In this document: positions 7,801-54,567 of the stretch, piece after piece
Layout of the letters: every line of letters begins with the position of its first letter
Position numbering within the stretch: position 1 is the first letter of the stretch
Assembly: GCA_945864585.1 (NCBI GenBank)
Contig: CAMBCF010000005.1
Span: 4,992 to 68,991 of the forward strand
Direction of reading: 5' to 3'
Origin: Bordetella parapertussis
GTDB lineage: Bacteria; Pseudomonadota; Gammaproteobacteria; Burkholderiales; SG8-41
Length of the DNA stretch: 64,000 nucleotides
Translations under genes and position numbers: made by a program
The notes under the pieces: model-generated
Database searches by the model: none
Told to the model about the DNA's origin: nothing
The model's input: only the letters and a program-made list of their open reading frames with translations

Positions 7801-8308
7801 TCGTGAGCTGGGACTCAACTTCTGCGAAAACCCGCTGCAGGGCTCCTTCATCATCAATGAACTGACCGATCTGGTGGAAGAAGCGGTCTACCAGGAGTTC
7901 GAGCGGATCTCCGAGCGCGGCGGAGTGCTGGGCGCGATGGATACCATGTATCAGCGGAGCAAAATTCAGGACGAGAGCCTGTACTACGAAAGCCTGAAAC
8001 ACGACGGTCGTCTGCCGCTGATTGGCGTAAATACCTACTTGCCGAAGAAGGGACACGAAGATCAGATCACCACCGTGGAACTGATGCGTTCCACAGAAGC
8101 GGAAAAGCAGGAGCAGATCACCGCGGTACGCGCGTTCCAAAAATTGCACGCTGCAGAGCGGCCTGCCCGTCTCGCGCATCTGCAGCAGGTCGCGCGCAGT
8201 CGTGGCAATGTGTTTGAAGCGTTGATGGAGGCCGTCAAGGTGGCCTCGCTGGGACAGATCTCGGGCGCCTTGTACGACGTCGGCGGCGAGTACCGCCGAA
8301 ACGTGTAA
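4868..8308 (+). CDS. icmF: fused isobutyryl-CoA mutase (B12 domain + MeaB-like GTPase + mutase barrel)
   Basis: ORF 4823-8308; B12-binding [11 protein letters not shown]-loop [12 protein letters not shown], long C-terminal methylmalonyl-CoA-mutase-like domain; AGGAG 7 nt upstream of ATG 4868. Confidence 0.9.
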
Positions 8309-8330
8309 GGCCCCGAGGACTCGCGCGAAC

Positions 8331-9140
8331 ATGTCCAAGGGGTTCACCGATGCCAGCGGCGCTGCTCACCCCGCAGCGGGCGATGGCGCACGCATCGTGT
8401 GCCTGGTGCCGAGCATTACTGAGCTGTTGTGCGATCTGGGGCTTAGCACGGCGCTGGTTGGGCGCACCGGCTTCTGTATCCATCCGCGCGAGAGCGTGCG
8501 CGTGATCCCAAAAGTCGGCGGGACCAAGAACGTCGACCTGAATAAAGTACGCGCGCTCAAACCCACTCACGTGATCGTGAATGTTGATGAGAACAAGCGC
8601 GAGACAGCGGCCGCACTGGCCGAATTTATTCCACACGTAATTGTTACTCATCCGCTTGCGCCGATTGATAATTACGGGCTGTATCGGCTGCTTGGCGATA
8701 TTTTTGGGGTAATGCCGCAGGCGCAACGACTGTGTGCCGCGTTGGATGAGGTGCTGGCGTTGATCGCCGCACACGGGCCGCGACCCCCGCGCAAGGTGCT
8801 TTACCTGATCTGGCGGGAGCCTTGGATGACCGTGGGACGCGACACCTACATCTCGCGCACGCTGGCGCACTTTAATTGGTGCACGCAACCTGGCGATCGC
8901 GAGGAGCGCTACCCCGTAATCGATCTCCGCGAAGTGGCGACCGGTGTCGATGAAGTGCTATTGAGCACCGAGCCGTTTCCATTCCAGACGCGTCACGTGC
9001 TTGAAGCGCAGACCCTATGCGGGGGTATCCCGGTGCGCTTGATCGATGGTGAGATGACGTCCTGGTACGGATCACGCGCCATCGCAGGACTGCGCTATCT
9101 CCACGCCTTTTCACGCGCGCACGCGCCGGTGGCGGCATGA
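8331..9140 (+). CDS. BtuF/TroA-fold (helical-backbone) cobalamin/metal-binding protein, no signal peptide
   Basis: 269 aa; RIVCLVPSITELLCDLGL..LVGRTGFC..KPTHVIVNVDENK pattern of periplasmic-binding-protein type 2 fold; immediately downstream of icmF. Confidence 0.6.
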   Translation: MSKGFTDASGAAHPAAGDGARIVCLVPSITELLCDLGLSTALVGRTGFCIHPRESVRVIPKVGGTKNVDLNKVRALKPTHVIVNVDENKRETAAALAEFIPHVIVTHPLAPIDNYGLYRLLGDIFGVMPQAQRLCAALDEVLALIAAHGPRPPRKVLYLIWREPWMTVGRDTYISRTLAHFNWCTQPGDREERYPVIDLREVATGVDEVLLSTEPFPFQTRHVLEAQTLCGGIPVRLIDGEMTSWYGSRAIAGLRYLHAFSRAHAPVAA

Positions 9141-9337
9141 GCCGGAGTGGCGCGATGGAGTCCCCATGTGTCTCGGTCTGCCAGATCAATCGTGCGACTG
9201 GCGTTTGCGAGGGGTGCCACGATGAGATTGACCACAAAGACCAGCACGAGGTCGCTGTTTTGATTCTTCGTCGACGTGAAAGGGTTGGGGATCAAACTGG
9301 GCCGCAAAGTGGATCATGTGGGCCTTGTCTACGATGA
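9137..9337 (+). CDS. small DUF1289-like Cys-rich protein (divergent; 3' end uncertain)
   Basis: ESPCVSVCQINRATGVCEGC matches the SPC..C....C.GC signature; ATGA overlap with upstream gene; tail overlaps the MaoC remnant on the opposite strand. Confidence 0.45.
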   Translation: MSRSGAMESPCVSVCQINRATGVCEGCHDEIDHKDQHEVAVLILRRRERVGDQTGPQSGSCGPCLR

Positions 9338-9395
9338 TCTTCCTTGAACGGAAGGTCTGCCCCACTGCGAAATCTTCAAGATATCTTTCCGGCAT
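9255..9395 (-). pseudogene. MaoC-like hydratase, N-terminal remnant (about 47 codons)
   Basis: MPERYLEDFAVGQTFRSRKIIVDKAHMIHFAAQFDPQPFHVDEE is a typical MaoC N-terminus; family similarity stops after HVDEE and the frame runs into unrelated sequence. Confidence 0.6.
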
Positions 9396-9470
9396 TATCG
9401 CTGCTTGCGCTGAAGCAAAAAACAGTGATGGCAAATCCGTGCAGATGCCGCAGCAGCTCACCTTGGCCGA

Positions 9471-10883
9471 TCAAGGAAGACCGGCGCCGGCGATGGCGTC
9501 GGCGAGCGCACGTACGTCAGATAAGTTGTCGATATCCATGATGGCATCGGCGAGTTCTGCCGCTTGTTTATCGCTCACCCGTGCGTAGCGCAGGTTCGCC
9601 TTGAACTTTGCGAGCAGTTCATCTCCGCTGAGCGGATTGTCGGGGTGACCCTTCGCGCAGGTTTGTTCCACGTCGCGGGTGCCGAACGCGCCGTGCGCAC
9701 GGAGCTTGCAGCCGCCGATATCGCGGTGCGCGGCCGCTGTATCGGGCGCGCAGCTGATTTTCGCTATCCATTCGCGAAGCTTCGGCGACGGGGGAATTTC
9801 CTCGGCCAGCTGGCGGGGGGTTACTTCGCCGTGGGCCAGCACGCTTGCAACCGACCAAAAGACGCTGAACTGCGCGTTAACGCGGGATTGCGGTGCGCGT
9901 TTCTCCGGCGCATCGCGACCGACGACATCTAGCGCTTGTGGCGCCATTAAGAGCTCCACGCGCTCGATCTTATCCGTGTCGCGGCCAAGCTGCGCGCGCA
10001 GATCAAGCGCCGCACTGATTGCCGCATGCGTGAAGCGGCACGTCGGGTACGGCTTGATCGACAGGCGGTCGAATTCCCATTGCGTGCCGAGGCCTTGTAT
10101 CGCACGCGCGGGATCAAAGCGATCGTGCAAATAGACACGGCTCAAACCATCTTCACCGGTGAGCGGATGTTTGACGCCCGGCAAGCCGCCACTCGCCATC
10201 AATGCAGCGGTGACCGCGTTCGCCGCAGCGAAGCCGGGCTGCACGTGCTTGGTCGAAGCGCCTTCACGCGTCGACTGATGGTTGCCGCTCGCTAGGCAAT
10301 ACACGATGCCCAGCGCGTTGCGCAGCACCTCGGGATACGGATCGATCAGGCGCGCGGCGGCGAGCGTTGCGCCGAAGTGGCCGAGTAGCGCCGTGTAGAT
10401 CCAGCCACCTTCGATCAGATTGAGTTTTGTCGCGACACCGAGCCGGCACGTCAGCTCCACGCCGAGCAGCACGGCTTCGCACAATTCCTTTCCGCTCACT
10501 TCGCCACGCAATCCCGCTGCGGCGAATGCGGCCGGTATCGCCGCCGAGCCGGCGTGCAGTACTGCCTCGTCGTGCGTGTCGTCGAGCTCGAGGACGTGGC
10601 CGTAGTAGCCGTTGCAGAGCGCCGCCGTCGGCGCTGGCACGCGCGGTCCGCCGATCACGCGTGCGTCCGGCCTGCCGCCCATATCCACCAGCACCTTGAG
10701 CCATGGCGGGTACCCCGCTGCGGCGCGGCCGGCAATCGCCGCGCCAAGATAGTCGAGCAACTCGCGCCTGACGCTTACGCGCGTAGCTTCGGGCACCTGC
10801 GCCCAGCGCAGCGATAGCGAAAGATCGATGAATGCGTCGAACGTCTGCTCGGGTGCATCATGTGTGGTATGGGCTGCTTTCAT
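9471..10883 (-). CDS. MmgE/PrpD-family protein (2-methylcitrate dehydratase-like)
   Basis: 470 aa, family-typical length and N-terminal ..RRELLDYLGAAIAG.. / ..HVLELDDTH.. motifs. Confidence 0.85.
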   Translation of the reverse strand: MKAAHTTHDAPEQTFDAFIDLSLSLRWAQVPEATRVSVRRELLDYLGAAIAGRAAAGYPPWLKVLVDMGGRPDARVIGGPRVPAPTAALCNGYYGHVLELDDTHDEAVLHAGSAAIPAAFAAAGLRGEVSGKELCEAVLLGVELTCRLGVATKLNLIEGGWIYTALLGHFGATLAAARLIDPYPEVLRNALGIVYCLASGNHQSTREGASTKHVQPGFAAANAVTAALMASGGLPGVKHPLTGEDGLSRVYLHDRFDPARAIQGLGTQWEFDRLSIKPYPTCRFTHAAISAALDLRAQLGRDTDKIERVELLMAPQALDVVGRDAPEKRAPQSRVNAQFSVFWSVASVLAHGEVTPRQLAEEIPPSPKLREWIAKISCAPDTAAAHRDIGGCKLRAHGAFGTRDVEQTCAKGHPDNPLSGDELLAKFKANLRYARVSDKQAAELADAIMDIDNLSDVRALADAIAGAGLP

Positions 10884-10913
10884 GCGTTGCTCCGTATGTG
10901 CTATGGACGAATG

Positions 10914-11606
10914 CTACTCGGCGCTTATACCCGCCTGCTTGGCGATACGGCTCCACTTCGCGAGATCGTTGATGATGAGTTCGCCAAATGCTTTCGGCGT
11001 GGCGACCACCGGCTCGGCGGCTTCAGCGGACAGGCGCTTGGCCATATCCGGGTCGCGCAGGATCGCGTTGATCTCGCCGTTGAGCTTCATCACGATCGGT
11101 CCCGGCACACCCGCAGGCGCGAGTATGCCCCACCAAATCGCGCCGTCGTAGCCCGGCACGCCGATCTCGGAAACGGTCAGTAAATCCGGCAAAAGCGGAG
11201 AACGTTTGGCCGAGCCGACGCCGAGTGGCTTGAGTTTGCCTGAACGTATATGCGGCAGCGCCTGGATCAGCGTGCCGAACAGCACCTTGACCTGTCCCGT
11301 CATCACATCGAGCATCGAGGTCCCGCCGCCTTTGTAGGGAATATGTGCAAGCTTGACACCGGCGAGCATGTTGAATAGTTCACCGCCGAAATGGTTGAAT
11401 CCGCCGATACCGGACGATGCGTAGCGGATTTGCCCCGGTTTGCCTTTTGCCAACGCGACCAGATCCTTTATGGTCTTCGCCGGGAAGCTCGGGTGCGTGG
11501 CAATGGCGTTCCCGCCCGACGCAATCTGCGCGATGGGGATCAGCGACTTCAGCGGGTCGTAGGGCAGCTTGTGTACTGCGGGATTCATCGTATAAGTCGT
11601 TGACAC
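10914..11606 (-). pseudogene. Bug/TctC-family receptor, 5'-truncated (lacks signal peptide and about 95 N-terminal residues)
   Basis: 230 aa starting in mid-family (..LPYDPLKSLIPIAQI..KDLVALAKGKPGQIRYASSGIGGFNH..HIPYKGGG..); no signal peptide or YP.KP..VVPF..GG segment upstream. Confidence 0.7.
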
Positions 11607-11664
11607 AAGCCCTCATTGTAGGAAGTCGCATTGTCCTCAAAGTTTAAAGGCATTACGGTCTTGA

Positions 11665-11713
11665 TGTCAAATCATCTAAATCAATTGACAAATACTAGAG
11701 CGTTTATTACGAT
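11665..11713 (+). promoter_or_regulatory. sigma70-like promoter (TTGACA-17-TACGAT) with inverted repeat TGTCAA-N14-TTGACA over the -35
   Basis: TTGACA 11685-11690, TACGAT 11708-11713; TGTCAA 11665-11670 is the reverse complement of the -35 hexamer; 35 nt upstream of ATG 11748. Confidence 0.4.
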
Positions 11714-11747
11714 AGGTGCACATATCCTTTTTCAACCGTTCTGCCGA

Positions 11748-13061
11748 ATGCTGAAAATCCGTAGCAGCTCTGACGTTGACTTCACCGCCTTTCTGCGTCC
11801 AGACGACGTCGTTACTTGGCCGCAGGGAACGGGCGAGCCGGTCGGTCTCACGCGGCGGCTGGTGGAGCAGCGCCATGCTCTCCCACAGATCGATCTTTTC
11901 ATCGGCATGAGTTCGAGCAAAACGCTTGCGCCCGAGCACGCGGCGCTCGCGCCAGGGCACCCCGGTCGCTTTCGCCTGCGGGGTTTGAATGGCGCGGGCA
12001 CCAACCGCGTGCTGGCTGCCGCGAACGTGCTGGACATCGTGCCGTGTCACGTTTCGTCGGTGCCCGGTCTGATTCGCTCGCGAGCGTTGCGTGTCGATGT
12101 TGTGCTCTTACGCGTCCGTCCGCATCCGAAACCCGGCTACTTTACCGTCGGCGTGATGGCTGATTTCGTGCCCGCGATGGTCGCAGCGGCGCGTTACGTG
12201 ATCGCCGAGGTTGATGAGCGCCTACCCATCACCGCGCAGGACGCGCTGGTCGCCGAAGCCGACATTGACGTGCTCGCGCAATGTGACGCTGGCGAGATCC
12301 TGCTGCCGGATCCGGAGCCTGCCGAAATCGATGTGCGTGTCGCTGCGCAGGCCGCCGCGTTGATTCCAGACGGCGCCACGATACAGCTCGGCGTCGGCAC
12401 TTTGCCCGTCGCGGTGTGCCGGGCGCTTAGCGGTCACCGCGATCTCGGTGTACACAGCGGCGTCATTTCCGACGCGCTGGTCGATCTGGTGGAGAAGGGT
12501 GTTGTCACCAACGCGCGCAAAGGCATCGATGTGGGAACGATCGTGACTGGCGGGCTGTTTGGCACCCGGCGCCTGATGCAGTTCGCCGATGGCAATAACG
12601 GCGTGCATCTGCGCGCCTCTGACTACACCCACAATCAGACTGTCATGTCGCGCGTACAGAAGCTCCATACCATCAACTCCGGCCTCGAAATCGACCTCAC
12701 GGGACAGGTCAATTCCGAAGTGGCGGGCAGCCGTTATCTGGGCGCAGTCGGCGGTCAGGTGGATTTCGTGCGCGGCGCGCAATCCTCTCCCGGAGGTCGC
12801 TCGATCATCGCGCTGTCCTCGACCACACCCGATGGCAAGCATTCGCGCATCGTCGCGTCGCTGGCCGGCCGCCCCGTTACCACGCCGCGCTCCGACGTCG
12901 ATCTGGTGGTGACCGAATACGGCGTTGCCGACTTGCGCGGCCGCTCGTTTACCGAGCGTGCAGCGCGGCTTGCGGCGATTGCGCATCCCGATTTCAGATC
13001 CGAACTCAGGGCCAATACGACGCACGCGAACGCGAAAGCAAACCCAAGAATGCAGACATGA
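11748..13061 (+). CDS. acetyl-CoA hydrolase/transferase family protein (4-hydroxybutyrate/succinyl-CoA transferase-like)
   Basis: ORF 11631-13061; start taken at MLKIRSSSDVDF (11748); ..QLGVGTLP.. and ..GAVGGQVDFVRGA.. family motifs. Confidence 0.85.
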   Translation: MLKIRSSSDVDFTAFLRPDDVVTWPQGTGEPVGLTRRLVEQRHALPQIDLFIGMSSSKTLAPEHAALAPGHPGRFRLRGLNGAGTNRVLAAANVLDIVPCHVSSVPGLIRSRALRVDVVLLRVRPHPKPGYFTVGVMADFVPAMVAAARYVIAEVDERLPITAQDALVAEADIDVLAQCDAGEILLPDPEPAEIDVRVAAQAAALIPDGATIQLGVGTLPVAVCRALSGHRDLGVHSGVISDALVDLVEKGVVTNARKGIDVGTIVTGGLFGTRRLMQFADGNNGVHLRASDYTHNQTVMSRVQKLHTINSGLEIDLTGQVNSEVAGSRYLGAVGGQVDFVRGAQSSPGGRSIIALSSTTPDGKHSRIVASLAGRPVTTPRSDVDLVVTEYGVADLRGRSFTERAARLAAIAHPDFRSELRANTTHANAKANPRMQT

Positions 13062-13840: not shown

Positions 13841-13957
13841 CCGGGCGCTGATTTTCGCTAGGCTGCGGATACGGGAGGATAGTGTCAAAAATAACTGTTT
13901 TAAATCAATAAGTTACTAAATTTTTTTCAGTCATATCAAAAAACACCAGGACGCGCG

Positions 13958-14731
13958 ATGAACGAAAAGAATGTCTCGATTTTTCGCAGCAAGGCGGAGC
14001 ACGTTGCGCATAGCCTGCTTGAGCGTATTCTCGCCGCGCGCATCAAACCCGGAGCGAGCTTCGCGACAGAAGCCGAACTGCTGTCGCAGTTCAACGTGAG
14101 CCGGCCTACATTGCGCGAAAGTCTGCGCATGCTGGAGTCGCAGGGTGTGCTCGCCATGAAACCGGGACCTGGCGGTGGCATCATCGTCGGCGAGCCGAGC
14201 ATCGACCTGCTCGCGCATGGTCTATCCGTGTTTCTTCGCCTGCACGAGGTGCCGTTTATAACGGTGCTCAAGGCGCGCGAGGTCATCGAACCGGCGCTTG
14301 CGCGCGAAGCGGCGATCCACGCGACGCAAGACGACTTCGCGGCGCTTGAGCAATCGATCGCGCGCATGAAAGCGCTACTGGCGGATGCCGATCAGGAAGC
14401 TTTCATCGAAGAGAACCTCGTCTTTCACCGTACTATCACGCGGGCGAGCGGCAACAAGGTGCTGGAGGCGTTCTGGTCAACCATCACCGTACTCGAGAGT
14501 GAGCAATTGCGGGACATCCGGTTTTCGGTCGGCAATCAGGCGCACGTGGCCGCAGCGCATGAGCGCATTCTCGCCGCGTGCCGCGCGCGCGATGGTGATG
14601 CCGCCGCTGCCGCCATGCAGGAGCACGTGAGCGGGCTCGAGAGTCTTGTGCGCACGCATTACCAGCATTTGCTCGCCCATCCGACGAACGTCGTTGCGCG
14701 GCCCGGGCGCACGGTCGGCCAAAATACCTGA
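13958..14731 (+). CDS. GntR/FadR-family transcriptional regulator (FCD domain)
   Basis: 257 aa; ..TEAELLSQFNVSRPTLRESLRMLESQGVLAMKPGPGGG.. HTH. Confidence 0.85.
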   Translation: MNEKNVSIFRSKAEHVAHSLLERILAARIKPGASFATEAELLSQFNVSRPTLRESLRMLESQGVLAMKPGPGGGIIVGEPSIDLLAHGLSVFLRLHEVPFITVLKAREVIEPALAREAAIHATQDDFAALEQSIARMKALLADADQEAFIEENLVFHRTITRASGNKVLEAFWSTITVLESEQLRDIRFSVGNQAHVAAAHERILAACRARDGDAAAAAMQEHVSGLESLVRTHYQHLLAHPTNVVARPGRTVGQNT

Positions 14732-40052: not shown

Positions 40053-40230
40053 CCGCATGAATGTACTTGTCATTGACGAAATCGCTGATACGATAGGCTG
40101 CAGCATTGATGACCGGCAGACTGGATAGAAAAACGAGTCAGCAAGTATCATTCCTTGCGCACCTATCAGCACGCGCTAGTCCGCCAAATCAGTCATCGCA
40201 CTTATATCACCTGAGAAAGGATTACCCATC

Positions 40231-41475
40231 ATGGTTCGCCTGGCAGACCTCTCGCCTTCCGATCAGGAAAACATGCTCAAAAAAGTTCCCACGCTTCCGC
40301 GCTTTGAGCAGCGCCCCTGGGCACGCGGCCCCAAACTCGCGCAGCGCCGCTTGGCGATCGTCAGCACCGCCGGTTTGCACGCGCGCGGTGACCGGCCGTT
40401 CGGTGGCGGCGGCATGGACTACCGGGTGATTGCCGGCGACATCGACGCCGGTGATCTGATCATGAGCCATATGTCGGTAAATTTCGACCGCAGCGGATTT
40501 CAGGAAGACTGGAATGTCGCATTTCCGCTGGATCGCCTGCAAGAACTCGCGCACGAAAAAATGATCGGTTCCGTCGCGGCATTTCACTACTCGTTCATGG
40601 GCGCCGTATCGCCGGTGACGAATTACCAAGCCAAAGCCGCCGAGCTTGCGCAATTGCTGCGCAACGACAAGGTTGACGCAGTATTGTTATCGCCCGTTTG
40701 ACCCAACTACACGTGCGCCGTCGGCGCACTCGGTCACTACCTCGAAGCCGCAGGCATACCCACCACGCAGATCAGTCTGGTACGCGAACACACCGAAGCA
40801 CTCGCGCCGCCGCGCGCGCTGTGGGTGCCCTTCATGCTCGGGCGTCCGTTCGGCGTGCCCAACGACGCTGCGTTTCAACGCAGGGTGCTGCTTGCCGCAC
40901 TGCAATTGTTCGAACGTGAATCGGGCCCCGTGCTTGAGGATTTTGCGCAAGACGCGCCGCATCAACGGTTAAGTTCGCCGCCTGAGAATCTGGTGTGCCC
41001 GGTCAGTTTCCCGCGCCTGCAGGCCGAGGGCGCACTGGCAGAAAAACTGGCCGACGAAGTATCGCAACTGCAAGCGTGGCACGAGGTGGCCGTCAAGCAT
41101 CGCGGCCGCACCACGCTGGGCGTCACTGGCATGCAGCCACTGCAAATCGTGGATTACCTCACGGCGTGGCTCAGCAATCAGCCCCCGCAGCCGTTTCGCA
41201 AGGATATATCACCCGGCGACGCCCTCAAGCAGGCGTGCGATGAACTCAAGGCTTTTTATCTGGAAGCCAAGGCTGTGCAACCGGGGCAGCACTCGGCAGC
41301 CAGTATTCAGCAGTGGTTCTGGATGGAAACCGCACTCGCTCAGGCTATTGTTCAGATACGCGCCATCGCGGCGAGCAGCGCTGAACCTTCCGTGAAAGGG
41401 GTTGCCGTGCAGAGCCTGGTTCCGCGCGCAATGGAAGCCGCTGTGCAGAAAAAGGCTGTTTCACAGAGCAGATGA
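40231..41475 (+). CDS. PrdB/GrdB-family (selenoprotein B-like) protein with in-frame UGA (predicted selenocysteine) at 40699-40701
   Basis: ORFs 40231-40701 and 40825-41475 share one frame; only interruption is TGA 40699; read-through ..DAVLLSPV-U-PNYTCAVGALGHYLEAAGIPTTQISL..; hairpin 11 nt downstream; AAAGGA RBS before ATG 40231. Confidence 0.8.
40713..40729 (+). promoter_or_regulatory. SECIS-like RNA hairpin
   Basis: GTGCGCC-GUC-GGCGCAC, perfect 7-bp stem starting 11 nt after UGA; GU at loop apex 18 nt past the UGA. Confidence 0.65.
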
Positions 41476-41554
41476 CCGTAAAACCCGTGCAAAATTAACC
41501 CGAGTAATCACATCGAAGTATAGAACGCCTGTCTTTCAAATAAAGGAAAACACA

Positions 41555-42115
41555 ATGATAAAACCGCTAGGCAATGACGATTTGTCCGACAAGCCGGGGG
41601 AAAGGATTATTGACAAGCCCGAACTGCCGGCCGCCGGCATCACCAATGAAAATGATCTGTTGACTGAAACCGTGAGCGGCCAGTTGCAGCTCAAGCGCAG
41701 CCAGTCAGGCAAGTTCGAAGTGTGGTGCGATGAGCCTGCGCGCATCGGCGGCACGGATACCTATCCGTCCCCAATGACGTATCTGGCGATGTCGATCGGC
41801 TTCTGACTGCTCACTCAGGTTGCGCGGTACGCGCACATGATGAAATTGAAAGTCAGCGACCCCAAATGCCGCGTAGTGATGCGCAAACACCTGGGTGGTT
41901 CCGTCATCAAAGGCACAGTGTTCAACAAGTGGGAGGGCATCAGTACCTATCTCACGGTCGAAAGCGACGAGGCTGAGGACAAGCTTGCGCATTTGATCAA
42001 AAACGCAAAAGCAGGATGCTTTGCGGAGGGACTGATCACCCAACAAGTTCCACTACACAGCCATGTCGAAGTAAACGGCAAGCCGTTTCAAATCGAAGGT
42101 GTTACGCAGAAATAG
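41555..42115 (+). CDS. OsmC/Ohr-family protein with in-frame UGA (predicted selenocysteine) at 41804-41806
   Basis: ORFs 41402-41806 and 41837-42115 share one frame; ..DEPARIGGTDTYPSPMTYLAMSIGF-U-LLTQVA.. puts UGA at the first conserved Cys column; second Cys kept in KNAKAGCFAEGL; RBS AAAGGAAAA before ATG 41555. Confidence 0.8.
41821..41835 (+). promoter_or_regulatory. SECIS-like RNA hairpin
   Basis: TGCGCG-GUA-CGCGCA, 6-bp stem starting 14 nt after UGA; GU at loop apex 20 nt past the UGA. Confidence 0.6.
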
Positions 42116-42150: not shown

Positions 42151-42528
42151 CTAATCTGCAAGCTTCTCGTAAGCCGCAACGTCCAGCAGCGCCCCCAACT
42201 CAGCCGGGTCGCTGAGTTTCATACGAAACAGCCACGCACCATATGGGTCTGTATTGACCGCTTCCGGCGCATCAGTGAGCGCTGGATTGATTTCAGTCAC
42301 CAGGCCCGAAGCGGGCGCATGTACGTCGGCCACAGTTTTGACGGACTCAATCACACCGCACGCTTCGCCCTGTCTGACCATGACGCCGGCAGCAGGAGGC
42401 TGCACGTAAACCACATCGCCCAACTGTTCCTGCGCGTGATAGGTAACGCCGACGATACAGCTATCGCCGGACTCCATCTTCAGCCAGGTGTGTGATTCAT
42501 GATACTTAAGATTCCCGGGGTTCAACAT
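42151..42528 (-). CDS. gcvH: glycine-cleavage-type H protein (lipoyl carrier)
   Basis: 125 aa; ..YHESHTWLK...GVIESVKTVADVHAPASG.. lipoyl-Lys motif; no gcvT/gcvP nearby. Confidence 0.85.
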   Translation of the reverse strand: MLNPGNLKYHESHTWLKMESGDSCIVGVTYHAQEQLGDVVYVQPPAAGVMVRQGEACGVIESVKTVADVHAPASGLVTEINPALTDAPEAVNTDPYGAWLFRMKLSDPAELGALLDVAAYEKLAD

Positions 42529-45041: not shown

Positions 45042-45605
45042 CTACCTGTGCAAGCGGCTCGTACGCGGTACCCCAATGAGCAAGTATTCCATTTGATCCG
45101 CCAGGATGTTTCGGTTCCGCAGGATAAAGTGCTCGTGCCTGGAGGGCGTGTAAGGCACATAAAGCAGCGGCATGCGCGCCTGCTCTGGCGTGCGATCCGC
45201 CTTTCTCCCGTTACAGGCCCGACACGCTGTGACCACATTCATCCAAACGTGCTTCCCGCCCCTTGAAACCGGTATCACGTGGTCGCATGAGAGTTCGCGG
45301 GTAGCAAAACGATTACCGCAATACGCGCACAGATGACGATCACGCGCGTAGAGCAGGTCATTGCCCAGCACCGGCACGCGCGCGAGCAAGCGTCCGGCAT
45401 GGCCCGCTCCACGCAGCGCCAAAATCGATTGCGTTTCAATACGTGAACGACGTCCATCGCGTTGCGTGCCGCCACGGTATTCGCAGACGCGGTTACCCGC
45501 CGACCAGGCCACAAGCTGCTTGGCGTGATACGTGATCGCCTCTTCGATACCCACCCAGGCCTGTGGCAGACCAGCCTGGTCCAGCATCAGAATCAATGTT
45601 TGCAT
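45042..45605 (-). CDS. HNH endonuclease
   Basis: 187 aa; ..CAYCGNRF...LSCDHVIPVSRGGKHVWMNVVTACRACNGRKADR.. Confidence 0.85.
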   Translation of the reverse strand: MQTLILMLDQAGLPQAWVGIEEAITYHAKQLVAWSAGNRVCEYRGGTQRDGRRSRIETQSILALRGAGHAGRLLARVPVLGNDLLYARDRHLCAYCGNRFATRELSCDHVIPVSRGGKHVWMNVVTACRACNGRKADRTPEQARMPLLYVPYTPSRHEHFILRNRNILADQMEYLLIGVPRTSRLHR

Positions 45606-45752: not shown

Positions 45753-45831
45753 TGGTACCGTCGGCAGGACTCGAACCCGCATCCTCCGCGTTCGAAGCGC
45801 GGCACTCTGGTTCCAATTGAGTTACGGCGGT
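45753..45831 (-). tRNA. tRNA-Arg (anticodon UCG), CCA encoded; atypical A1-U72 and C5-A68 mismatch
   Basis: Hand-folded: ACCGCCG TA ACTC..GAGT G CCGCG CTTCGAA CGCGG AGGAT GCGGG TTCGAGT CCTGC CGACGGT A CCA. Confidence 0.7.
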
Positions 45832-45843
45832 GCAAATCTGAAT

Positions 45844-45918
45844 TGGTAGGCCCTGCAGGAATCGAACCTGCCTAATGCGGATTAAAAGTCCGCTGCCTCG
45901 CCAATCGGCCAAGGACCT
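45844..45918 (-). tRNA. tRNA-Lys (anticodon UUU), CCA encoded; A1-U72
   Basis: Hand-folded: AGGTCCT..GCGGA CTTTTAA TCCGC ATTAG GCAGG TTCGATT CCTGC AGGGCCT A CCA. Confidence 0.75.
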
Positions 45919-45928
45919 GAATTGATAG

Positions 45929-46005
45929 TGGGGTGACCGACGCGATTCGAACGCGCACCCGCTTGGTTCACAGCCAAGCACTCTGCCAGTTAAGCTACGA
46001 CCACC
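45929..46005 (-). tRNA. tRNA-His (anticodon GUG) with encoded G-1 opposite C73, CCA encoded
   Basis: Hand-folded: G-GTGGTCG TA GCTT..CTTGG CTGTGAA CCAAG CGGGT GCGCG TTCGAAT CGCGT CGGTCAC C CCA. Confidence 0.8.
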
Positions 46006-46017
46006 ATCGATAAAAAT

Positions 46018-46095
46018 TGGCTCCGGCCAGTGGAATCGAACTACTCTCATTCGCCGTTAACAGCGGCGCGCTTTCACCTTGAAAGCCAGACCGGA
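46018..46095 (-). tRNA. tRNA-Asn (anticodon GUU), CCA encoded
   Basis: Hand-folded: TCCGGTC TG GCTT TCAAGGTGA AAGC G CGCCG CTGTTAA CGGCG..TTCGATT..GGCCGGA G CCA; U1-A72 and G73 as in E. coli tRNA-Asn; starts 8 nt after the rtcB stop. Confidence 0.75.
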
Positions 46096-46103
46096 AACTA
46101 TGC

Positions 46104-46409
46104 CTACCCCTTCACGCACAGCACCTGTTTCAGGGTATGCACGATTTCGACGAGATCCGATTGCGCCGCCATCACGTCATCGATGGACTTGTACGCGCCC
46201 GGAATCTCATCAATCACACCGCTGTCCTTGCGATATTCCACACCAGCGGTTTGCTGTGCCAGGTCCGCTTGCGAGTAGCGGCGCCTGGCTTCACCCCGGC
46301 TCATGCGGCGCCCCGCGCCATGCGAACATGAGGCATACGCGTCAGCGTGCCCCTTGCCCTTCACGATGTAGGACTTCACTCCCATGCTGCCAGGGATGAT
46401 GCCAAGCGC
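46104..46409 (-). pseudogene. rtcB: RNA ligase RtcB, 3'-terminal remnant (about last 100 codons)
   Basis: ..LGIIPGSMGVKSYIVKGKG..SCSHGAGRRMSR..IDEIPGAYKSIDDVMAAQSDLVEIVHTLKQVLCVKG closely resembles the E. coli RtcB C-terminus; upstream the frame dissolves into the Bug fragment in another frame. Confidence 0.8.
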
Positions 46410-46885
46410 ACGATCAGCTCCCTGGCGGATTTGGCGGGAACCGACGGGTGGGCCACCAGCAGCATACAGGTGTGCACGAGAAACGCCACCGGCGCCAGAT
46501 CGACGAGCGGGTCATAGTTGAGTTTCAGCAGATGGGGGTTGATCACGATCTGTCCCAAGGTGGCGAACACCAGGGTATGACCGTCTGGCGGCGATTTGGC
46601 GGTCAGCTCCACCGCGATCGAGCCCGATGCGCCGGAACGATGCTCGATGATCACAGGTTGTTTCCAGGTTTCGTTCAGTTTTTGCGAGACCATGCGCGCA
46701 AACAGATCGGTCGCACCACCCGGCGGCTGTCCTGAGAGAATGCGTACCGGTTTGGACGGATACGCTTGACCCAGTGCTGCGCTACCGTGCGTAAGCAGCG
46801 CGCACATCGCTAGTACGCTCACGATCACACTGATTAATCGCGAGGCAGAATCCAACCCAGCTACATTCTGAGACGAAGTTTTCAT
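46376..46885 (-). pseudogene. Bug/TctC-family receptor, N-terminal half only (3'-truncated at junction with the rtcB remnant)
   Basis: 169 aa: signal peptide, YPSKPVRILSGQPPGGATD..EHRSGASGSIA..AHPSVPAKSARELI then unrelated tail and stop; family continues about 160 aa further in intact paralogs. Confidence 0.7.
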
Positions 46886-50394: not shown

Positions 50395-51639
<1,245 letters not shown>

Positions 51640-52818
51640 TCAAACGGCCCACGGCAGCCCAACGTAGTTCTCCGCGAGGGTTGTGGCGGCGGCCCGCGAG
51701 CTTATGACGTATTCGAGCTGTGAGCGCTGCAGGCGCTGCTGGAACGCGTCGTCCTCCGGGAAACGGTGCAGCATGGAAGTCATCCACCACGAGAAATGCT
51801 CCACCCGCCAGACACGTTTCAGGCAGGTCGCGGAATAGGCATCAAGGAGCTCACTGCGCCCCGTAGCGAAGTATGCCGCGAGCGCCGGGGCCAGCACCCG
51901 CACATCAGCCACCGCGAGATTGAGTCCCTTGGCGCCGGTGGGCGGCACGATATGCGCGGCGTCACCGGCAAGGTAGAGCCTGCCGTAGCGCATCGGCTCG
52001 ACGACGAAGCTGCGCATCTCCGTGATGTTCTTCGACAGCACCGGGCCTTCGGTGAGCTGCCAGCCGTCGTCGGTCGCGAGCCTCACCCGCAACTCCTGCC
52101 AGATGCGCTCGTCAGGCCAGTTCGCAACATCCTCGTCCGCTGCGACCTGCAGGAAATGCCGCGTGAGCGCCGGCGAGCGCCGGTTGAAAAACCCGAAACC
52201 GCGCTCGTGCCAGGCGTAGACCGTCTCTTGTTCCGGGGTCGCTGCCTCCACCAGGATGCCGAGCCAGCCGAACGGGTAGACGCGCTCGAACACGCTCAGC
52301 GCACCCGCCGGTATCGACGGACGGCAGACACCGTGAAAGCCGTCGCAGCCGGCGATGAAATCACAAGCGAGCTCCACTGGCTCACCGTTCCTGCTGAAGT
52401 GGATGCGGGACGAAGCTGAGTCCAAGTCACTCACGCTCACGTCCTCGACCTCGAAAAGAATTTGGCCGCCTGCGGCAAGGCGCGCCTCAACCAGATCCTT
52501 CACGATCTCCTGCTGGGCGTAGATGGTGTAGGGGCGCCCGCCGGAGAGCTCCTTCAGGTTGAGGGGATGGCGTCTGCCGCCGAATCGCAGCTCGATGCTG
52601 TCGCGGACTATGCATTCCCGCCGCAGCCGTTCGCCGACGCCCGACGCCGTCAGCAGGTCCACCGTGCCCTGCTCGAGCACGCCCGCCCGCACGCGCTGCT
52701 CGATGTAGTCGCGGCTGCGGTTTTCGATGACAACCGACTCGACACCCTGCAAGTGCAGCAGATGCGAGAGCAACAACCCGGCCGGCCCGGCGCCGACGAT
52801 GGCGACTTGAGTACGCAC
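51640..52818 (-). CDS. pobA: 4-hydroxybenzoate 3-monooxygenase, canonical-looking paralog
   Basis: 392 aa; [58 protein letters not shown]. Confidence 0.9.
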   Translation of the reverse strand: MRTQVAIVGAGPAGLLLSHLLHLQGVESVVIENRSRDYIEQRVRAGVLEQGTVDLLTASGVGERLRRECIVRDSIELRFGGRRHPLNLKELSGGRPYTIYAQQEIVKDLVEARLAAGGQILFEVEDVSVSDLDSASSRIHFSRNGEPVELACDFIAGCDGFHGVCRPSIPAGALSVFERVYPFGWLGILVEAATPEQETVYAWHERGFGFFNRRSPALTRHFLQVAADEDVANWPDERIWQELRVRLATDDGWQLTEGPVLSKNITEMRSFVVEPMRYGRLYLAGDAAHIVPPTGAKGLNLAVADVRVLAPALAAYFATGRSELLDAYSATCLKRVWRVEHFSWWMTSMLHRFPEDDAFQQRLQRSQLEYVISSRAAATTLAENYVGLPWAV

Positions 52819-52829
52819 GCGCTGTCCGC

Positions 52830-53474
52830 TTATTCGAGCTTGATGTCGAACATCATCATGACGTGGCCGCCCATCATGTCCTGGAGCGCCGGTGCGGCGC
52901 CCTTGTACGGCACGTGGACGATGTCGGCCTTGGTGGTCAGCTTGAACAATTCCCCGGCGATAGGGCCCGAGCTGCCGACACCCTGCGAGGCGTAAGTCAA
53001 TTCGCCTCGCCTCGCCGTGGCGAGCGCGATCAACTCTTTGACCGATTTCGCCGGCACAGAGGGATGCACCACCAGCACGTTCGGCACGGCCGCCATCAGG
53101 ATGATCGGGCTGAAATCCTTCACCGCGTCATACGGCAATTTGGCGACGAGGTGCGGGAGTATCGCGTTGGTGGCGTGGAATCCTGCGAACAGCGTGTAAC
53201 CATCGGGGGGAGACTTGGCGGCGACCTCGGCCCCGATGATCCCTCCGCCGCCGGTGCGATTGTCCACGATCACCGGCTGCCGGGTCGCAGCAGGCATTTT
53301 CTGCGCGAGCGCGCGCGACAGCAGGTCGGCCATCCCGCCGGGGGCGAGCGGCACGATGATGCGCACCGGCTTGGCCGGATACTCCTGGCCATGTGCCGGA
53401 ATGACAGCCGTGAGCCAAACTACACCTGCGGCCGATACCGCGAGCGCAGCGCTGCCTCGACGAACAATGGTCAT
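52830..53474 (-). pseudogene. Bug/TctC-family receptor, 3'-truncated (about 214 of 320 codons)
   Basis: ORF 52830-53576; from MTIVRRGSAAL signal peptide through ..HVPYKGAAPALQDMMGGHVMMMFD then stop 12 nt before the pobA start; C-terminal about 100 residues absent. Confidence 0.65.
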
Positions 53475-53555
53475 GACGGTCCCCCGTATTCTTCTATGAA
53501 CTTTCCCCCACATCCTGCGCGACATCGTTTCGAACACCATTTTCCACCAGCAGGC

Positions 53556-53584
53556 AATGTATCCGCCGCACTGCAAACGGTCAA
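53556..53584 (-). promoter_or_regulatory. recurring promoter module, copy C (TTGACC-17-TACATT)
   Basis: Minus strand: TTGACC 53584-53579, TACATT 53561-53556; 82 nt upstream of the Bug fragment start; 48/63 nt identical to copy B. Confidence 0.5.
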
Positions 53585-53595
53585 CTGCGCATAAG

Positions 53596-54567
53596 TCAGT
53601 CGATGGTGATGCCCGTTTGTTTGATCATCTTCTCCCACCGCGCAACATCGGCGCGCAGAAAAGCGGCGAACTCCTCCGGCGTACTGGGCGATACCATGCC
53701 GCCTTCGAACTGAAGACTCTTCTGCACCTCGGGCATTGCCAACACTTTTACGACCTCTCGATTCAGGCGTGTGACCACTTCCCTCGGCACCTTGGCCGGT
53801 GCCAGCAGGCCATGCCAAAGAATCGTCTCGAACCCGGGCATACCGGATTCTGCGACCGTCGGAACGTCGGGAAATAAATGTGATCGTTTCACACCGGTTA
53901 CGGCCAGCAGTCTCGCCCTGCCATCCCTCGCATAAGTTAACGCTGAGACCATGGACGTGATCATGTAGGACACGCGTCCGGCATATAAATCGAGCATGCC
54001 TGGCCCACCGCCTTTATACGGAACATGCAAGGTATTGATGCCCATTGCGCCATTGAAGAAAGCCCCGAGAACGTGGCTGCTGCCCGCGGTACCCGCCGAT
54101 GCAAAGGTCAATGCTCCGGGATTTGCCTTTGCGGCTGCGATGAGATCTTTTAGCGACCGCAGCGGCGACTTATCGTTAACCACAAACACCTGCGGCGTAC
54201 GCACCACCAGCGAGATCGGCGCAAAGGCGGTGAGCGTGTCAAAGTTTTTCTGCTTGCGCACCGCCTGGCCAACCACGAGATTGCCGTCTTGCCCCAAAAC
54301 AATCGTGTAGCCATCCGCAGCCGCATTCGCTGCGATCTCCGCACCTAACGCACCCGCAGCACCGGCTCGATTGTCGAGCACTAATTGCTGTCCCAGCGCT
54401 TCAGAAAGCTTGATACTGATGATGCGCGAGTAGGTGTCGGTGCTGCCGCCGGGCGGAAACGGCACGATGAGCCGAATCGGGCGATAAGGATAAGATTGCG
54501 CCAATGCCGGCGCTGCGACGGAAAACAGCGCCCACACCGTGATGCCAAAACCGAAAACGCGTTTCAT
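53596..54567 (-). CDS. Bug/TctC-family tripartite tricarboxylate transporter substrate-binding protein (intact)
   Basis: 323 aa; signal peptide, YPYRPIRLIVPFPPGGSTD..DNRAGAAGALG..HVPYKGGGPGM. Confidence 0.9.
   Translation of the reverse strand: MKRVFGFGITVWALFSVAAPALAQSYPYRPIRLIVPFPPGGSTDTYSRIISIKLSEALGQQLVLDNRAGAAGALGAEIAANAAADGYTIVLGQDGNLVVGQAVRKQKNFDTLTAFAPISLVVRTPQVFVVNDKSPLRSLKDLIAAAKANPGALTFASAGTAGSSHVLGAFFNGAMGINTLHVPYKGGGPGMLDLYAGRVSYMITSMVSALTYARDGRARLLAVTGVKRSHLFPDVPTVAESGMPGFETILWHGLLAPAKVPREVVTRLNREVVKVLAMPEVQKSLQFEGGMVSPSTPEEFAAFLRADVARWEKMIKQTGITID

What the first reader, a model, noticed from the sequence alone, without database searches (positions are those of the whole stretch)
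40231..41475. ORF track splits one gene: PrdB/GrdB-family selenoprotein with in-frame UGA and SECIS-like hairpin
ORFs 40231-40701 and 40825-41475 are in the same frame (offset 594 = 3 x 198). The only stop between 40231 and 41475 is TGA at 40699-40701 (codon 157). Reading through gives ..NDKVDAVLLSPV-[TGA]-PNYTCAVGALGHYLEAAGIPTTQISLVREHTEALAPPRALWVPFMLGRPFGVPND.., so protein-like sequence continues straight across the stop, and there is no ATG in this frame before 40825. From memory, this matches the region around the selenocysteine of D-proline reductase PrdB and glycine reductase GrdB (..DAVLLT..U..C.. then ..EEAGIPT..), so the TGA sits at the family's known Sec column. Eleven nt after the TGA, a perfect 7-bp stem GTGCGCC/GGCGCAC closes a GUC loop (40713-40729), putting G-U at the apex 18 nt past the UGA as expected for a bacterial SECIS. 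No PrdA/GrdA/GrdE-type partner is in the window and the neighbourhood looks aerobic-heterotrophic, so the substrate is unknown. A C-terminal extension of about 170 aa (from about 40960) is unassigned.
Basis: partly seen in the sequence, partly recalled or inferred. Interest (0 to 1): 0.8.

Follow-up and report, generated by a model that had tools for sequence, protein, structure and literature searches.

The report
Split selenoprotein gene, PrdB-like, aerobic bacterium
Two neighbouring "genes" are really one 414-codon gene whose internal TGA encodes selenocysteine; it belongs to a widespread family, already listed as a selenoprotein and routinely mis-annotated, that resembles a proline reductase subunit but whose real function is unknown.

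Summary
Window 40231-41475 (+) is one reading frame with a single stop, TGA at 40699-40701.

Evidence that the TGA encodes selenocysteine:
- All 91 related sequences examined carry TGA at this column. Full-length homologues carry Cys there (C-P-x-C-T/S).
- Synonymous changes outnumber non-synonymous ones on both sides of the TGA.
- The hairpin at 40713-40729 is conserved. Its third-codon positions are frozen, and one tracks its pairing partner (U16 with A30 in 32 of 36; C16 with G30 in 38 of 39).
- In four relatives, selA/selB and in three of them tRNA-Sec lie within 10 kb; one also has selD.

The protein is not a true D-proline reductase subunit. It scores 89 bits against a 300-bit PrdB cut-off, has no PrdA/Grd partner, and carries an extra conserved helical domain with no structural relative. 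The family was already listed as "proline reductase PrdB" in ocean selenoproteome surveys. I therefore rate it a new member of a known kind with unknown function.

- A second selenoprotein gene (OsmC-like, 41555-42115, TGA at 41804) lies directly downstream.
- This allele alone has Tyr in place of the conserved UxxC cysteine.

The parts
40231..41475 (+). Complete PrdB-like selenoprotein gene: 414 codons plus a TGA stop, with Sec at codon 157
   Evidence: Single frame. Aligns end to end with full-length Cys homologues. Synonymous changes outnumber non-synonymous ones on both sides of the TGA against L001, L003, L004 and L005.
40699..40701 (+). UGA read as selenocysteine (U157), in a UGA-C context
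   Evidence: TGA at this column in 83 of 83 sequences and in 8 of 8 metagenome hits, where it was part of the search pattern. Full-length homologues have Cys here.
40713..40729 (+). SECIS hairpin: 7-bp stem GUGCGCC/GGCGCAC closing the loop GUC. G and U in the loop are invariant in 76 distinct sequences.
   Evidence: Fold. Pair counts: pair 16-30 is C-G in 38 and U-A in 32; pair 15-31 is G-C in 65 and U-A in 3; four inner pairs are essentially invariant. Third-codon positions inside the stem are frozen and those outside are free.
40708..40710 (+). TAC (Tyr160) where every relative has the Cys codon (TGC/TGT) of the UxxC motif
   Evidence: The window is the only one of 91 sequences with A at 40709.
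40714..40716 (+). Cys162 (U-x4-C). This second cysteine is present in most betaproteobacterial and some other members (UPxCTC) and is the only nearby candidate resolving cysteine in this allele.
40333..40911 (+). PrdB-like alpha/beta domain (aa 35-227)
   Evidence: TIGR04483 matches profile positions 26-218 of 238, 89 bits. In the AlphaFold2 model of the Cys homologue P0114 the CxxC sits at the N-terminus of a helix that follows a beta strand.
40912..41472 (+). Family-specific C-terminal region (aa 228-414): a low-confidence linker followed by a confidently predicted helical bundle
   Evidence: Conserved in both Sec and Cys forms. pLDDT is above 90 for most of the bundle. No Pfam, NCBIfam, PDB-sequence or Foldseek match.
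40996..41001 (+). Cys256-Pro257, invariant in the close family, inside the low-confidence interdomain linker
   Evidence: Invariant columns in A1 and A5. Lowest pLDDT segment in both models. Absent from some distant full-length forms (P0243, P0249, P0258).
41555..42115 (+). Second selenoprotein gene, OsmC-related, 186 codons, 79 nt downstream on the same strand
   Evidence: The read-through protein scores 162.2 bits against NF041052 'OsmC-related (seleno)protein' (cut-off 95), in one stretch covering profile positions 6-144 of 144. The two halves hit the two halves of the profile.
41804..41806 (+). UGA read as Sec in the OsmC-like gene (..SIGF-U-LLTQ.., a UxxT motif)
   Evidence: The same '*LLTQ' is seen in the relatives that span this column (7 loci).
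41821..41835 (+). Second SECIS-like hairpin, UGCGCG-GUA-CGCGCA, starting 14 nt after the UGA
   Evidence: Sequence and fold. Covariation was not tested.
40067..40151 (+). Two sigma-70-like promoter matches upstream of the gene. No terminator-like site lies between the two selenoprotein genes, so they may form one operon.
   Evidence: These are consensus matches only and are weak evidence.

Best explanation
Window 40231-41475 is one gene for a 414-residue selenoprotein.

Translation. During translation, SelB carrying Sec-tRNA(Sec) binds the hairpin at 40713-40729, which starts 11 nt after UGA-157. The UGA is then read as selenocysteine instead of stop. The comparative signature of this recoding is shown here; selenium insertion itself is inferred.

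Protein. The N-terminal alpha/beta domain is homologous to nearly the whole of PrdB, the selenoprotein subunit of D-proline reductase. Sec sits at the same column as in PrdB and GrdB, at the start of a helix. A family-specific helical domain follows.

Chemistry (inferred from PrdB/GrdB). The selenolate attacks an electrophile. A nearby cysteine resolves the adduct to a selenenyl-sulfide. A dithiol such as thioredoxin or a lipoyl protein then re-reduces it. In this allele the usual +3 cysteine is Tyr, so only Cys162 (+5) could act as the resolving cysteine.

What it is not. It is not a Stickland D-proline reductase. It has no pyruvoyl partner and it lives in aerobic heterotrophs.

Likely role. 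Context favours a thiol-dependent detoxification or antioxidant module shared with the OsmC-like selenoprotein that appears to be co-transcribed. I put this at about 0.4, against about 0.3 for substrate-specific reductive cleavage. The overall confidence of 0.85 applies to the claim that this is a genuine selenoprotein gene for a U/CxxC-type oxidoreductase, not to the specific role.
For: - TGA at the column in 83 of 83 sequences. Eight further metagenome hits carry it too, though there it was part of the search pattern.
- Cys at the column in 15 of 16 full-length representatives (C-P-x-C-T/S; the 16th lacks the segment) and in four other full-length homologues.
- Of the 150 best cluster representatives, 102 are fragments of about 245 aa that start right after the Sec column, and 16 are full-length.
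- Synonymous changes exceed non-synonymous ones on both sides of the TGA. Against L003 the counts are 45:13 before and 74:23 after.
- SECIS: stem third-codon positions 15, 18, 21, 27 and 30 are nearly fixed, while positions 6, 9, 24, 33, 36, 39, 42 and 45 vary freely. Position 30 is A in 32 of 36 sequences when position 16 is U, and G in 38 of 39 when it is C.
- The 31-nt SECIS core is identical in metagenome contigs whose genes otherwise diverge from the window's (ungapped identity 0.41-0.83, partly lowered by indels).
- Sec machinery lies beside the gene in relatives: L037 (tRNA-Sec, SelB 383 bits, SelA 576 bits), L072 (SelB, SelA, SelD, tRNA-Sec), L083 (tRNA-Sec, SelB, SelA) and L042 (SelA, SelB).
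- A second selenoprotein gene with a similar SECIS lies 79 nt downstream.
- Redox context: an OsmC-like Sec gene follows in 8 betaproteobacterial loci. L083 has GST, then the PrdB-like gene, then thioredoxin, a Prx-like Sec protein and OsmC.
- Structure: in the AlphaFold2 model of a Cys homologue, the CxxC sits at a helix N-terminus after a beta strand.
Against: - The 64-kb window has no selA, selB, selD or tRNA-Sec (and the ORF scans). Sec decoding in this particular genome is therefore inferred from two SECIS-bearing genes and from relatives.
- This allele lacks the otherwise universal +3 cysteine (UPNYTC). That could be a sequencing error or an impaired allele.
- No conserved neighbour exists across the family. 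The redox context appears in only two lineages.
- No experimental datum exists for any member.
- The covariation counts are not phylogenetically independent.
Confidence: 0.85

Rival explanations
1. It is a substrate-specific reductase that uses PrdB/GrdB chemistry. Sec would attack the alpha-carbon of a carboxylate or CoA-thioester and reductively cleave a C-N or C-X bond. The C-terminal domain would replace the missing PrdA/GrdE partner.
For: - Homology covers about 80% of PrdB.
- Many invariant residues lie outside the redox motif, including DRSGFQ, HYSFMG, PPRALWVPF, RGRTT and QPG.
- In four marine alphaproteobacterial loci the gene sits directly between a family III CoA-transferase and a D-2-hydroxyacid dehydrogenase.
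- The PrdB mechanism is described in PMC3091704.
Against: - No pyruvoyl proprotein is present, and the C-terminal domain gives no Pfam match at all, so no PrdA/GrdE homology.
- The CoA-transferase operon belongs to one narrow clade, and such transferases are abundant paralogues in these genomes: three occur in this window alone.
- No substrate can be named.
Confidence: 0.3
2. It is the genuine PrdB subunit of a Stickland-type D-proline reductase, as JGI labels the N-terminal fragments.
For: The best NCBIfam hit is TIGR04483 PrdB. JGI names the N-terminal fragments 'D-proline reductase (dithiol) PrdB'.
Against: - It scores 89 bits against an equivalog cut-off of 300.
- It is 414 aa, against 242 aa for PrdB.
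- No prdA, prdC, prdD, prdE or prdF is present in the window or in the Pfam-annotated relatives L001, L083 and L084.
- The host genes point to aerobic metabolism.
Confidence: 0.02
3. The TGA is a true stop. The locus would then be a pseudogene, or two independent genes of 156 aa and about 216 aa.
For: Gene callers and public databases annotate it this way almost everywhere. This allele also carries an unusual Cys-to-Tyr change next to the TGA.
Against: - A nonsense mutation would not be conserved as TGA specifically in all 83 independently retrieved sequences, across several phyla.
- No start codon occurs for 41 codons after the TGA, yet that stretch is the most conserved DNA of the gene.
- Fused Cys-containing forms exist.
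- Both halves are under purifying selection.
Confidence: 0.03
4. The gene is a real selenoprotein gene in the lineage, but this particular allele is functionally compromised, or the Tyr160 codon is a sequencing or assembly error.
For: Only 1 of 91 sequences has A at 40709. It is a single G-to-A change in the otherwise invariant UxxC cysteine.
Against: - The rest of the gene is intact and 95% identical in protein to L001, with synonymous changes at least as numerous as non-synonymous ones.
- Cys162 is retained and could resolve the selenenyl intermediate.
Confidence: 0.25

Closest known systems
'Proline reductase PrdB' selenoprotein family of the ocean selenoproteome surveys (Zhang, Fomenko and Gladyshev 2005, PMC1088965; Zhang and Gladyshev 2008, PMC2398784; also listed for Anaeromyxobacter and Geobacter in PMC1794560)
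   Same: - Pfam PF07355 and a UxxC motif.
- Selenocysteine forms outnumber Cys forms (235 to 110 in the Global Ocean Sampling survey). Here, about 127 of the 150 best cluster representatives are fragments beginning at or shortly after the Sec column, against 16 full-length forms.
- Found in aerobic waters and in non-Stickland bacteria.
- Our related loci include marine Rhodospirillaceae and SAR202 genomes.
   Different: Identity with that family is inferred from its descriptors. The papers give no sequences that I could align. Those papers treat it as proline reductase and do not describe the extra C-terminal domain or the missing PrdA.
D-proline reductase subunit PrdB (Clostridium sticklandii CLOST_2232, 242 aa, Sec152; NCBIfam TIGR04483)
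   Same: Homologous over profile positions 26-218 of 238. Sec falls at the equivalent column. UxxC is present in relatives. The selenenyl-sulfide and dithiol redox cycle is presumed to be shared.
   Different: - 89 bits against a 300-bit cut-off.
- 172 extra residues forming a helical domain.
- No PrdA pyruvoyl partner and no prd operon.
- Aerobic hosts.
- In this allele UxxC is UxxY.
Glycine, sarcosine and betaine reductase protein B selenoproteins (GrdB, GrdF, GrdH; about 436-440 aa; Sec350/352)
   Same: The C-terminal third aligns (profile positions 272-420), including the Sec column. Many members, including the window's clade, have U-x-x-C-x-C, which recalls the UxxCxxC motif of GrdB (PMC13188914).
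   Different: - The N-terminal 270 residues of GrdB are absent.
- All NCBIfam cut-offs are missed: 38-45 bits against 602-800, and the subfamily model TIGR01918 gives 40.8 against 65.45.
- No GrdA, GrdC or GrdE is present.
Operons or islands of UxxC/UxxT redox selenoproteins (Prx-like, Trx-like and OsmC-like; NF041052)
   Same: Here an OsmC-related selenoprotein lies immediately downstream. L083 has GST, thioredoxin, a Prx-like Sec protein and OsmC next to tRNA-Sec, selB and selA.
   Different: The PrdB-like fold is unrelated to the Trx and OsmC folds. The clustering is lineage-specific and not family-wide.

Membership tests
Bacterial selenoprotein gene (UGA-Sec with SECIS) | In-frame UGA with conserved coding sequence in the same frame on both sides | tested here: met
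Bacterial selenoprotein gene (UGA-Sec with SECIS) | Homologues with Cys at the UGA column | tested here: met
   C-P-x-C-T/S in P0027, P0108, P0113, P0114 and in 15 of 16 full-length representatives.
Bacterial selenoprotein gene (UGA-Sec with SECIS) | Stem-loop shortly after the UGA with G/U in the apical loop, conserved and supported by covariation | tested here: met
   The stem starts 11 nt after the UGA and the loop is GUC. G22 and U23 are invariant in 76 sequences. The compensatory pair 16-30 involves a synonymous site. No Rfam SECIS model matches, which says little about short bacterial SECIS elements.
Bacterial selenoprotein gene (UGA-Sec with SECIS) | selA, selB, selC and selD present in the same genome | not testable with these tools
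   None is present in the 64-kb window (ORF scans). They lie adjacent to the orthologue in L037, L042, L072 and L083. A second SECIS-bearing gene in the window argues that the trait is present.
Bacterial selenoprotein gene (UGA-Sec with SECIS) | Selenium actually incorporated at residue 157 | not testable with these tools
   Requires selenium-75 labelling or mass spectrometry.
D-proline reductase PrdB (TIGR04483 equivalog) | Score at or above the curated cut-off of 300 bits | tested here: not met
   89 bits.
D-proline reductase PrdB (TIGR04483 equivalog) | Sec at the PrdB Sec column, in a UxxC motif | tested here: inconclusive
   The column agrees by profile arithmetic: residue 157 maps to about profile position 148 of 238, and C. 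sticklandii has Sec152 of 242. UxxC is present in 90 relatives, but this allele has UxxY.
D-proline reductase PrdB (TIGR04483 equivalog) | Encoded with prdA (the pyruvoyl proprotein) and other prd genes | tested here: not met
   No such gene is present in the window, in L001, L083 or L084, or as a conserved neighbour in 83 loci. The rest of the genome was not seen.
Glycine/betaine/sarcosine reductase protein B (TIGR01917, NF040794/5; subfamily TIGR01918) | Scores above the curated cut-offs and the full 430-residue architecture | tested here: not met
   38-45 bits against 602-800. TIGR01918 gives 40.8 against 65.45. Only profile positions 272-420 align.
Pfam PF07355 GRDB superfamily | Gathering score of 22 bits | tested here: met
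   35.4 bits for residues 84-154 against profile positions 275-345 of 347.
Stand-alone PrdB-like selenoprotein family (ocean 'PrdB' of Zhang and Gladyshev) | PF07355 domain with U/C-x-x-C, about 400-aa architecture with a conserved C-terminal domain, and Sec forms predominating | tested here: met
   Equating this with the published family rests on descriptors only.
OsmC-related (seleno)protein NF041052 (the downstream gene) | Score at or above 95 bits over the whole profile, with Sec or Cys at the active-site column | tested here: met
   162.2 bits, covering profile positions 6-144 of 144, with U replaced by C for the scan.

The most novel reading that the evidence does not exclude
The family could be a self-contained, oxygen-tolerant selenoenzyme with chemistry not yet described. 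On this reading, the fold-orphan C-terminal domain replaces the PrdA/GrdE partner. The invariant Cys-Pro in the flexible interdomain linker (Cys256) would be either a third redox cysteine or, as in PrdA and GrdE, the precursor of a pyruvoyl group made by self-cleavage at a cysteine. A single polypeptide would then carry out reductive bond cleavage in aerobic bacteria.
Probability: 0.1. Interest if true: 0.75.

Novelty: new member of a known kind. Interest (0 to 1): 0.4.

Why it matters
- Annotation. This gene, and hundreds like it, are split in public databases into a 156-aa "PrdB" and a roughly 245-aa "hypothetical protein". In relatives the false start is the GTG valine codon in the SECIS loop. 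Pathway predictions therefore report proline reductase in aerobes that cannot have it.
- Biology. This is one of the most abundant selenoprotein families in surface waters. It keeps Sec far more often than Cys. It has no solved structure, no partner and no known substrate.
- A way in. The window offers a compact two-selenoprotein unit (PrdB-like plus OsmC-like) in a heterotroph related to cultivable Burkholderiales. It also carries a natural variant lacking the canonical resolving cysteine. Both make the family's chemistry testable.

Tried and rejected
- Rfam. The gathering-threshold search of the whole window and the permissive search of 40650-41900 found no SECIS family.
- Solved structures. 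The PDB sequence search gave no hits at E up to 1. Foldseek against the PDB gave nothing at E of 1e-3 or better, for either the full-length model or the window's C-terminal fragment. The top hits, such as periplasmic binding proteins and de novo helical bundles, have TM-scores of 0.25 or less and were dismissed.
- Conserved neighbours. Clustering ORFs from 83 loci and annotating the commonest clusters gave only generic families: TctC, ABC transporter ATPase, enoyl-CoA hydratase, TetR, PLP enzyme and DnaN.
- GcvH next door (42151-42528, minus strand). It looked attractive as a dithiol donor, but it is adjacent in only 3 close relatives.
- Family III CoA-transferase adjacency. It occurs in 11 loci, but three paralogues in this window alone show how common these genes are.
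- A weak Pfam hit to HGD-D (E = 0.3) was dismissed as noise.
I modelled a Cys homologue and the exact C-terminal fragment instead.
- Searching the window for selA, selB and selD with tblastn, and for tRNA-Sec with ARAGORN, found nothing.
Full report
**1. Observation**

Window 40231-41475 (+) translates as 414 codons with one internal stop, TGA at 40699-40701, codon 157. The ORF list shows the two same-frame pieces, 40231-40701 and 40825-41475. No ATG, GTG or TTG occurs in the frame between them.

The hairpin GTGCGCC-GTC-GGCGCAC occupies 40713-40729. It starts 11 nt after the TGA. The 42 nt from the UGA fold to -15.8 kcal/mol, with z = -2.87, and none of 200 shuffles fold as well. Over 62 nt the signal is weak (z = -1.5).

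TGA is the commonest normal stop in the window (21 of 50 genes). The GC pattern by codon position is the same before and after the internal TGA. All stated coordinates are correct.

**2. One gene, read through**

A protein search returned more than 2000 relatives.
- Most top hits are 231-256-aa proteins that begin just after the TGA column.
- A search with the N-terminal 156 aa returned hundreds of 155-158-aa proteins that end at it.
- Full-length homologues of 369-436 aa align over the whole 414 residues. They carry Cys at the column: VCPNCT, VCLLCT and VCPSCT.

An exhaustive profile search of 1.84 billion cluster representatives found 494 clusters at E of 1e-30 or better. Among the best 150:
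- 102 start at profile position 154-158, directly after the Sec column.
- 25 start slightly later.
- 16 are full-length, and 15 of those carry C-P-x-C-[T/S/P]; the 16th (P0244) lacks the segment.

I fetched 80 genomic loci from Betaproteobacteria, Alphaproteobacteria, Gammaproteobacteria, Desulfobacterota, Chloroflexota and Binatia, plus two metagenome contigs. In all 82, and in the window, the column is TGA, never TAA or TAG.

Against the four closest relatives, synonymous differences equal or outnumber non-synonymous ones on both sides of the TGA. For L003 the counts are 45:13 upstream and 74:23 downstream.

**3. SECIS**

The 48 nt from the UGA align without gaps in 76 distinct sequences.
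- Counted on that alignment, the stem pairing columns 15-21 with 25-31 has four essentially invariant G-C pairs.
- Pair 16-30 is C-G in 38 sequences and U-A in 32. Pair 15-31 is G-C in 65 and U-A in 3. The observed covariation score was reached by 0 of 500 shuffles.
- Because this is coding sequence, I examined third-codon positions separately. Those inside the stem (15, 18, 21, 27, 30) are nearly fixed. Those outside it, or in the loop (6, 9, 24, 33, 36, 39, 42, 45), vary freely.
- Position 30 is a synonymous site. It is A in 32 of 36 sequences when position 16 is U (Cys codon), and G in 38 of 39 when position 16 is C (Arg codon).
- The loop bases G22 and U23 are invariant, although they are also the first two bases of an invariant Val codon.
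- A lower stem (columns 8-12 with 34-38) is present in only part of the family.
- An exact 31-nt pattern over the UGA and stem found 8 metagenome contigs whose genes otherwise diverge from the window's: ungapped identity 0.41-0.83, partly lowered by indels.
- Rfam has no matching model.

**4. Sec machinery**

The window has no tRNA-Sec. It has no selA, selB or selD by tblastn, and none by family scans of nearly every ORF of 80 aa or more.

In relatives the gene lies beside the machinery:
- L037: tRNA-Sec, SelB (383 bits, cut-off 242) and SelA (576 bits, cut-off 268).
- L072: SelB, SelA, SelD and tRNA-Sec directly upstream.
- L083, from a 6.9-Mb genome: tRNA-Sec, SelB and SelA.
- L042: SelA and SelB.

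Four of 84 loci is about ten times what random placement would give.

The window also holds a second selenoprotein gene 79 nt downstream, at 41555-42115.
- Its single TGA is at 41804-41806 (..SIGF-U-LLTQ..), followed by the hairpin UGCGCG-GUA-CGCGCA at 41821-41835.
- The read-through protein scores 162.2 bits on NF041052 "OsmC-related (seleno)protein", cut-off 95.
- One or two such genes follow the PrdB-like gene in 8 betaproteobacterial loci.

**5. What the protein is**

- Pfam PF07355 passes its gathering score, 35.4 against 22.
- The best NCBIfam model is PrdB TIGR04483, in one stretch covering profile positions 26-218 of 238. At 89 bits it is far below the 300-bit equivalog cut-off.
- The GrdB, GrdF and GrdH models align only through their C-terminal third, at 38-45 bits. 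The subfamily model TIGR01918 is also missed, 40.8 against 65.45.
- The profile offsets put residue 157 at about position 148 of the PrdB profile (238 positions) and about 347 of the GrdH profile (435 positions). This matches Sec152 of 242, Sec350 of 436 and Sec352 of 440 in C. sticklandii PrdB, GrdB and GrdH (PMC3091704).
- Residues 228-414 match nothing in Pfam or NCBIfam, yet they are conserved in both Sec and Cys forms.

AlphaFold2 gave two models.
- The Cys homologue P0114 (pLDDT 83.4) shows an alpha/beta domain with the CxxC at the N-terminus of helix 157-172, after strand 149-153. A low-confidence linker and a helical domain follow.
- The exact window fragment 158-414 (pLDDT 83.1) gives a confident helical bundle. 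The invariant Cys256-Pro257 falls in the least confident segment.
- Neither model has a PDB match at E of 1e-3 or better. No PDB sequence matches either.

**6. Context and function**

No Prd or Grd partner is present in the window or in the Pfam-annotated relatives. No neighbour family is conserved across the 83 loci.

Lineage-specific contexts are:
- An OsmC-like selenoprotein downstream, with GcvH nearby in three loci only, in the window's clade.
- GST, then the PrdB-like gene, then thioredoxin, a Prx-like selenoprotein (FYRGHW-U-PYC), OsmC and the sel genes in L083.
- Family III CoA-transferase, then the PrdB-like gene, then D-2-hydroxyacid dehydrogenase in four marine alphaproteobacterial loci.

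The shared chemistry I commit to is the PrdB/GrdB redox cycle: Sec as nucleophile, a selenenyl-sulfide formed with a nearby Cys, and re-reduction by a dithiol (mechanism as in PMC3091704). The oxidant is unknown.
- Context slightly favours a detoxification or antioxidant role, about 0.4. That paper's reference list includes a study reporting peroxidase activity of GrdB; I saw only its title.
- A substrate-specific reductive cleavage gets about 0.3.

**7. Anomaly**

Every relative has U-P-x-C-T. The window has U-P-N-Y-T-C, with TAC at 40708-40710. It is the only one of 91 sequences with A at 40709. Cys162 (+5) is common in this clade and remains. Whether this is an error, a tolerated variant or an impaired allele cannot be decided here.

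**8. Novelty**

Ocean selenoproteome surveys already list "proline reductase PrdB" (pfam07355, UxxC) among the most abundant selenoprotein families. They report 42 genes in the Sargasso Sea, and 235 Sec against 110 Cys forms in the Global Ocean Sampling survey (PMC1088965, PMC2398784). "Proline reductase" is also listed for Anaeromyxobacter and Geobacter (PMC1794560).

Databases still split the gene. JGI names the N-terminal fragment "D-proline reductase (dithiol) PrdB". NCBI names it [quoted passage not shown]. The C-terminal fragment is "hypothetical". No paper in the library treats the stand-alone family as distinct.

**Verdict.** This is a genuine selenoprotein gene and a new member of a known, functionally uncharacterised kind. 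It is of moderate interest.

Noticed in passing
window 41555-42115 (+); TGA at 41804-41806; hairpin at 41821-41835: A second split selenoprotein gene lies directly downstream. It is an OsmC-related (seleno)protein with the motif ..SIGF-U-LLTQ.. and its own GU-apex hairpin. It is probably co-transcribed with the PrdB-like gene. The read-through protein scores 162 bits against NF041052 (cut-off 95).
   Followed up: yes
window 40708-40710: The UxxC cysteine, conserved in all 90 relatives examined, is Tyr (TAC) in this window. It is a single G-to-A difference at 40709. Only Cys162 remains near Sec157.
   Followed up: partly
related loci, column 22-24 of alignment A2 (window 40720-40722): In most relatives the Val codon in the SECIS apical loop is GTG. 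Gene callers use it as a false start, which explains why 102 of the 150 best cluster representatives begin 'MGALGHY..' right after the Sec column. In the window the codon is GTC, so the mechanical ORF starts only at 40825.
   Followed up: yes
L083 6748-16747 (6.9-Mb genome): A selenoprotein and thiol-redox island. It runs GST, the PrdB-like Sec gene, thioredoxin, small ORFs, a split Prx-like selenoprotein (10336-10809, FYRGHW-U-PYC), an OsmC-domain protein, tRNA-Sec (13892-13986), selB and selA.
   Followed up: partly
L072 3174-11194; L037 7293-14612; L042: The Sec-insertion genes sit immediately beside the PrdB-like gene in unrelated lineages: selB-selA-selD-tRNA-Sec in an alphaproteobacterium, and tRNA-Sec-selB-selA in a Burkholderiales genome. 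L037 also has oxalyl-CoA decarboxylase (969 bits) directly upstream.
   Followed up: partly
L055, L066, L079, L082 (for example L079 about 8300-12210): In marine Rhodospirillaceae-type genomes the gene sits tightly between a family III CoA-transferase and a D-2-hydroxyacid dehydrogenase on one strand. This hints at an acyl-CoA or 2-hydroxyacid substrate in that clade.
   Followed up: partly
window 42151-42528 (-): A stand-alone GcvH (lipoyl carrier, 145 bits against a cut-off of 117) has no other glycine-cleavage genes nearby. It lies next to the two selenoprotein genes and could be a dithiol donor, but the adjacency is shared with only 3 close relatives.
   Followed up: partly
window 50395-51639 (+) and 51640-52818 (-): Two convergent paralogues of 4-hydroxybenzoate 3-monooxygenase abut each other end to end. 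Both score well above the subfamily cut-off (612 and 602 bits against 351).
   Followed up: no
window 45042-45605 (-) and 45753-46095 (-): A 187-aa ORF with an HNH domain resembling those of IscB and Cas9 (weak hits of 40-44 bits) lies next to a cluster of four tRNA genes (Arg, Lys, His, Asn).
   Followed up: no
window 46376-46885, 52830-53576, 10914-11606 (all -): Three TctC-family receptor ORFs cover only part of the Pfam profile (positions 2-98, 2-157 and 49-273 of 274). They may be truncated, frameshifted or given the wrong start. Full-length TctC paralogues are at 307-1275 and 53596-54567.
   Followed up: no
window 4823-8308 (+): A 1161-aa fusion of a B12-binding domain, a MeaB GTPase and a methylmalonyl-CoA-mutase-type domain (IcmF-like architecture). 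It lies among CoA-transferase, enoyl-CoA hydratase and acyl-CoA dehydrogenase genes.
   Followed up: no
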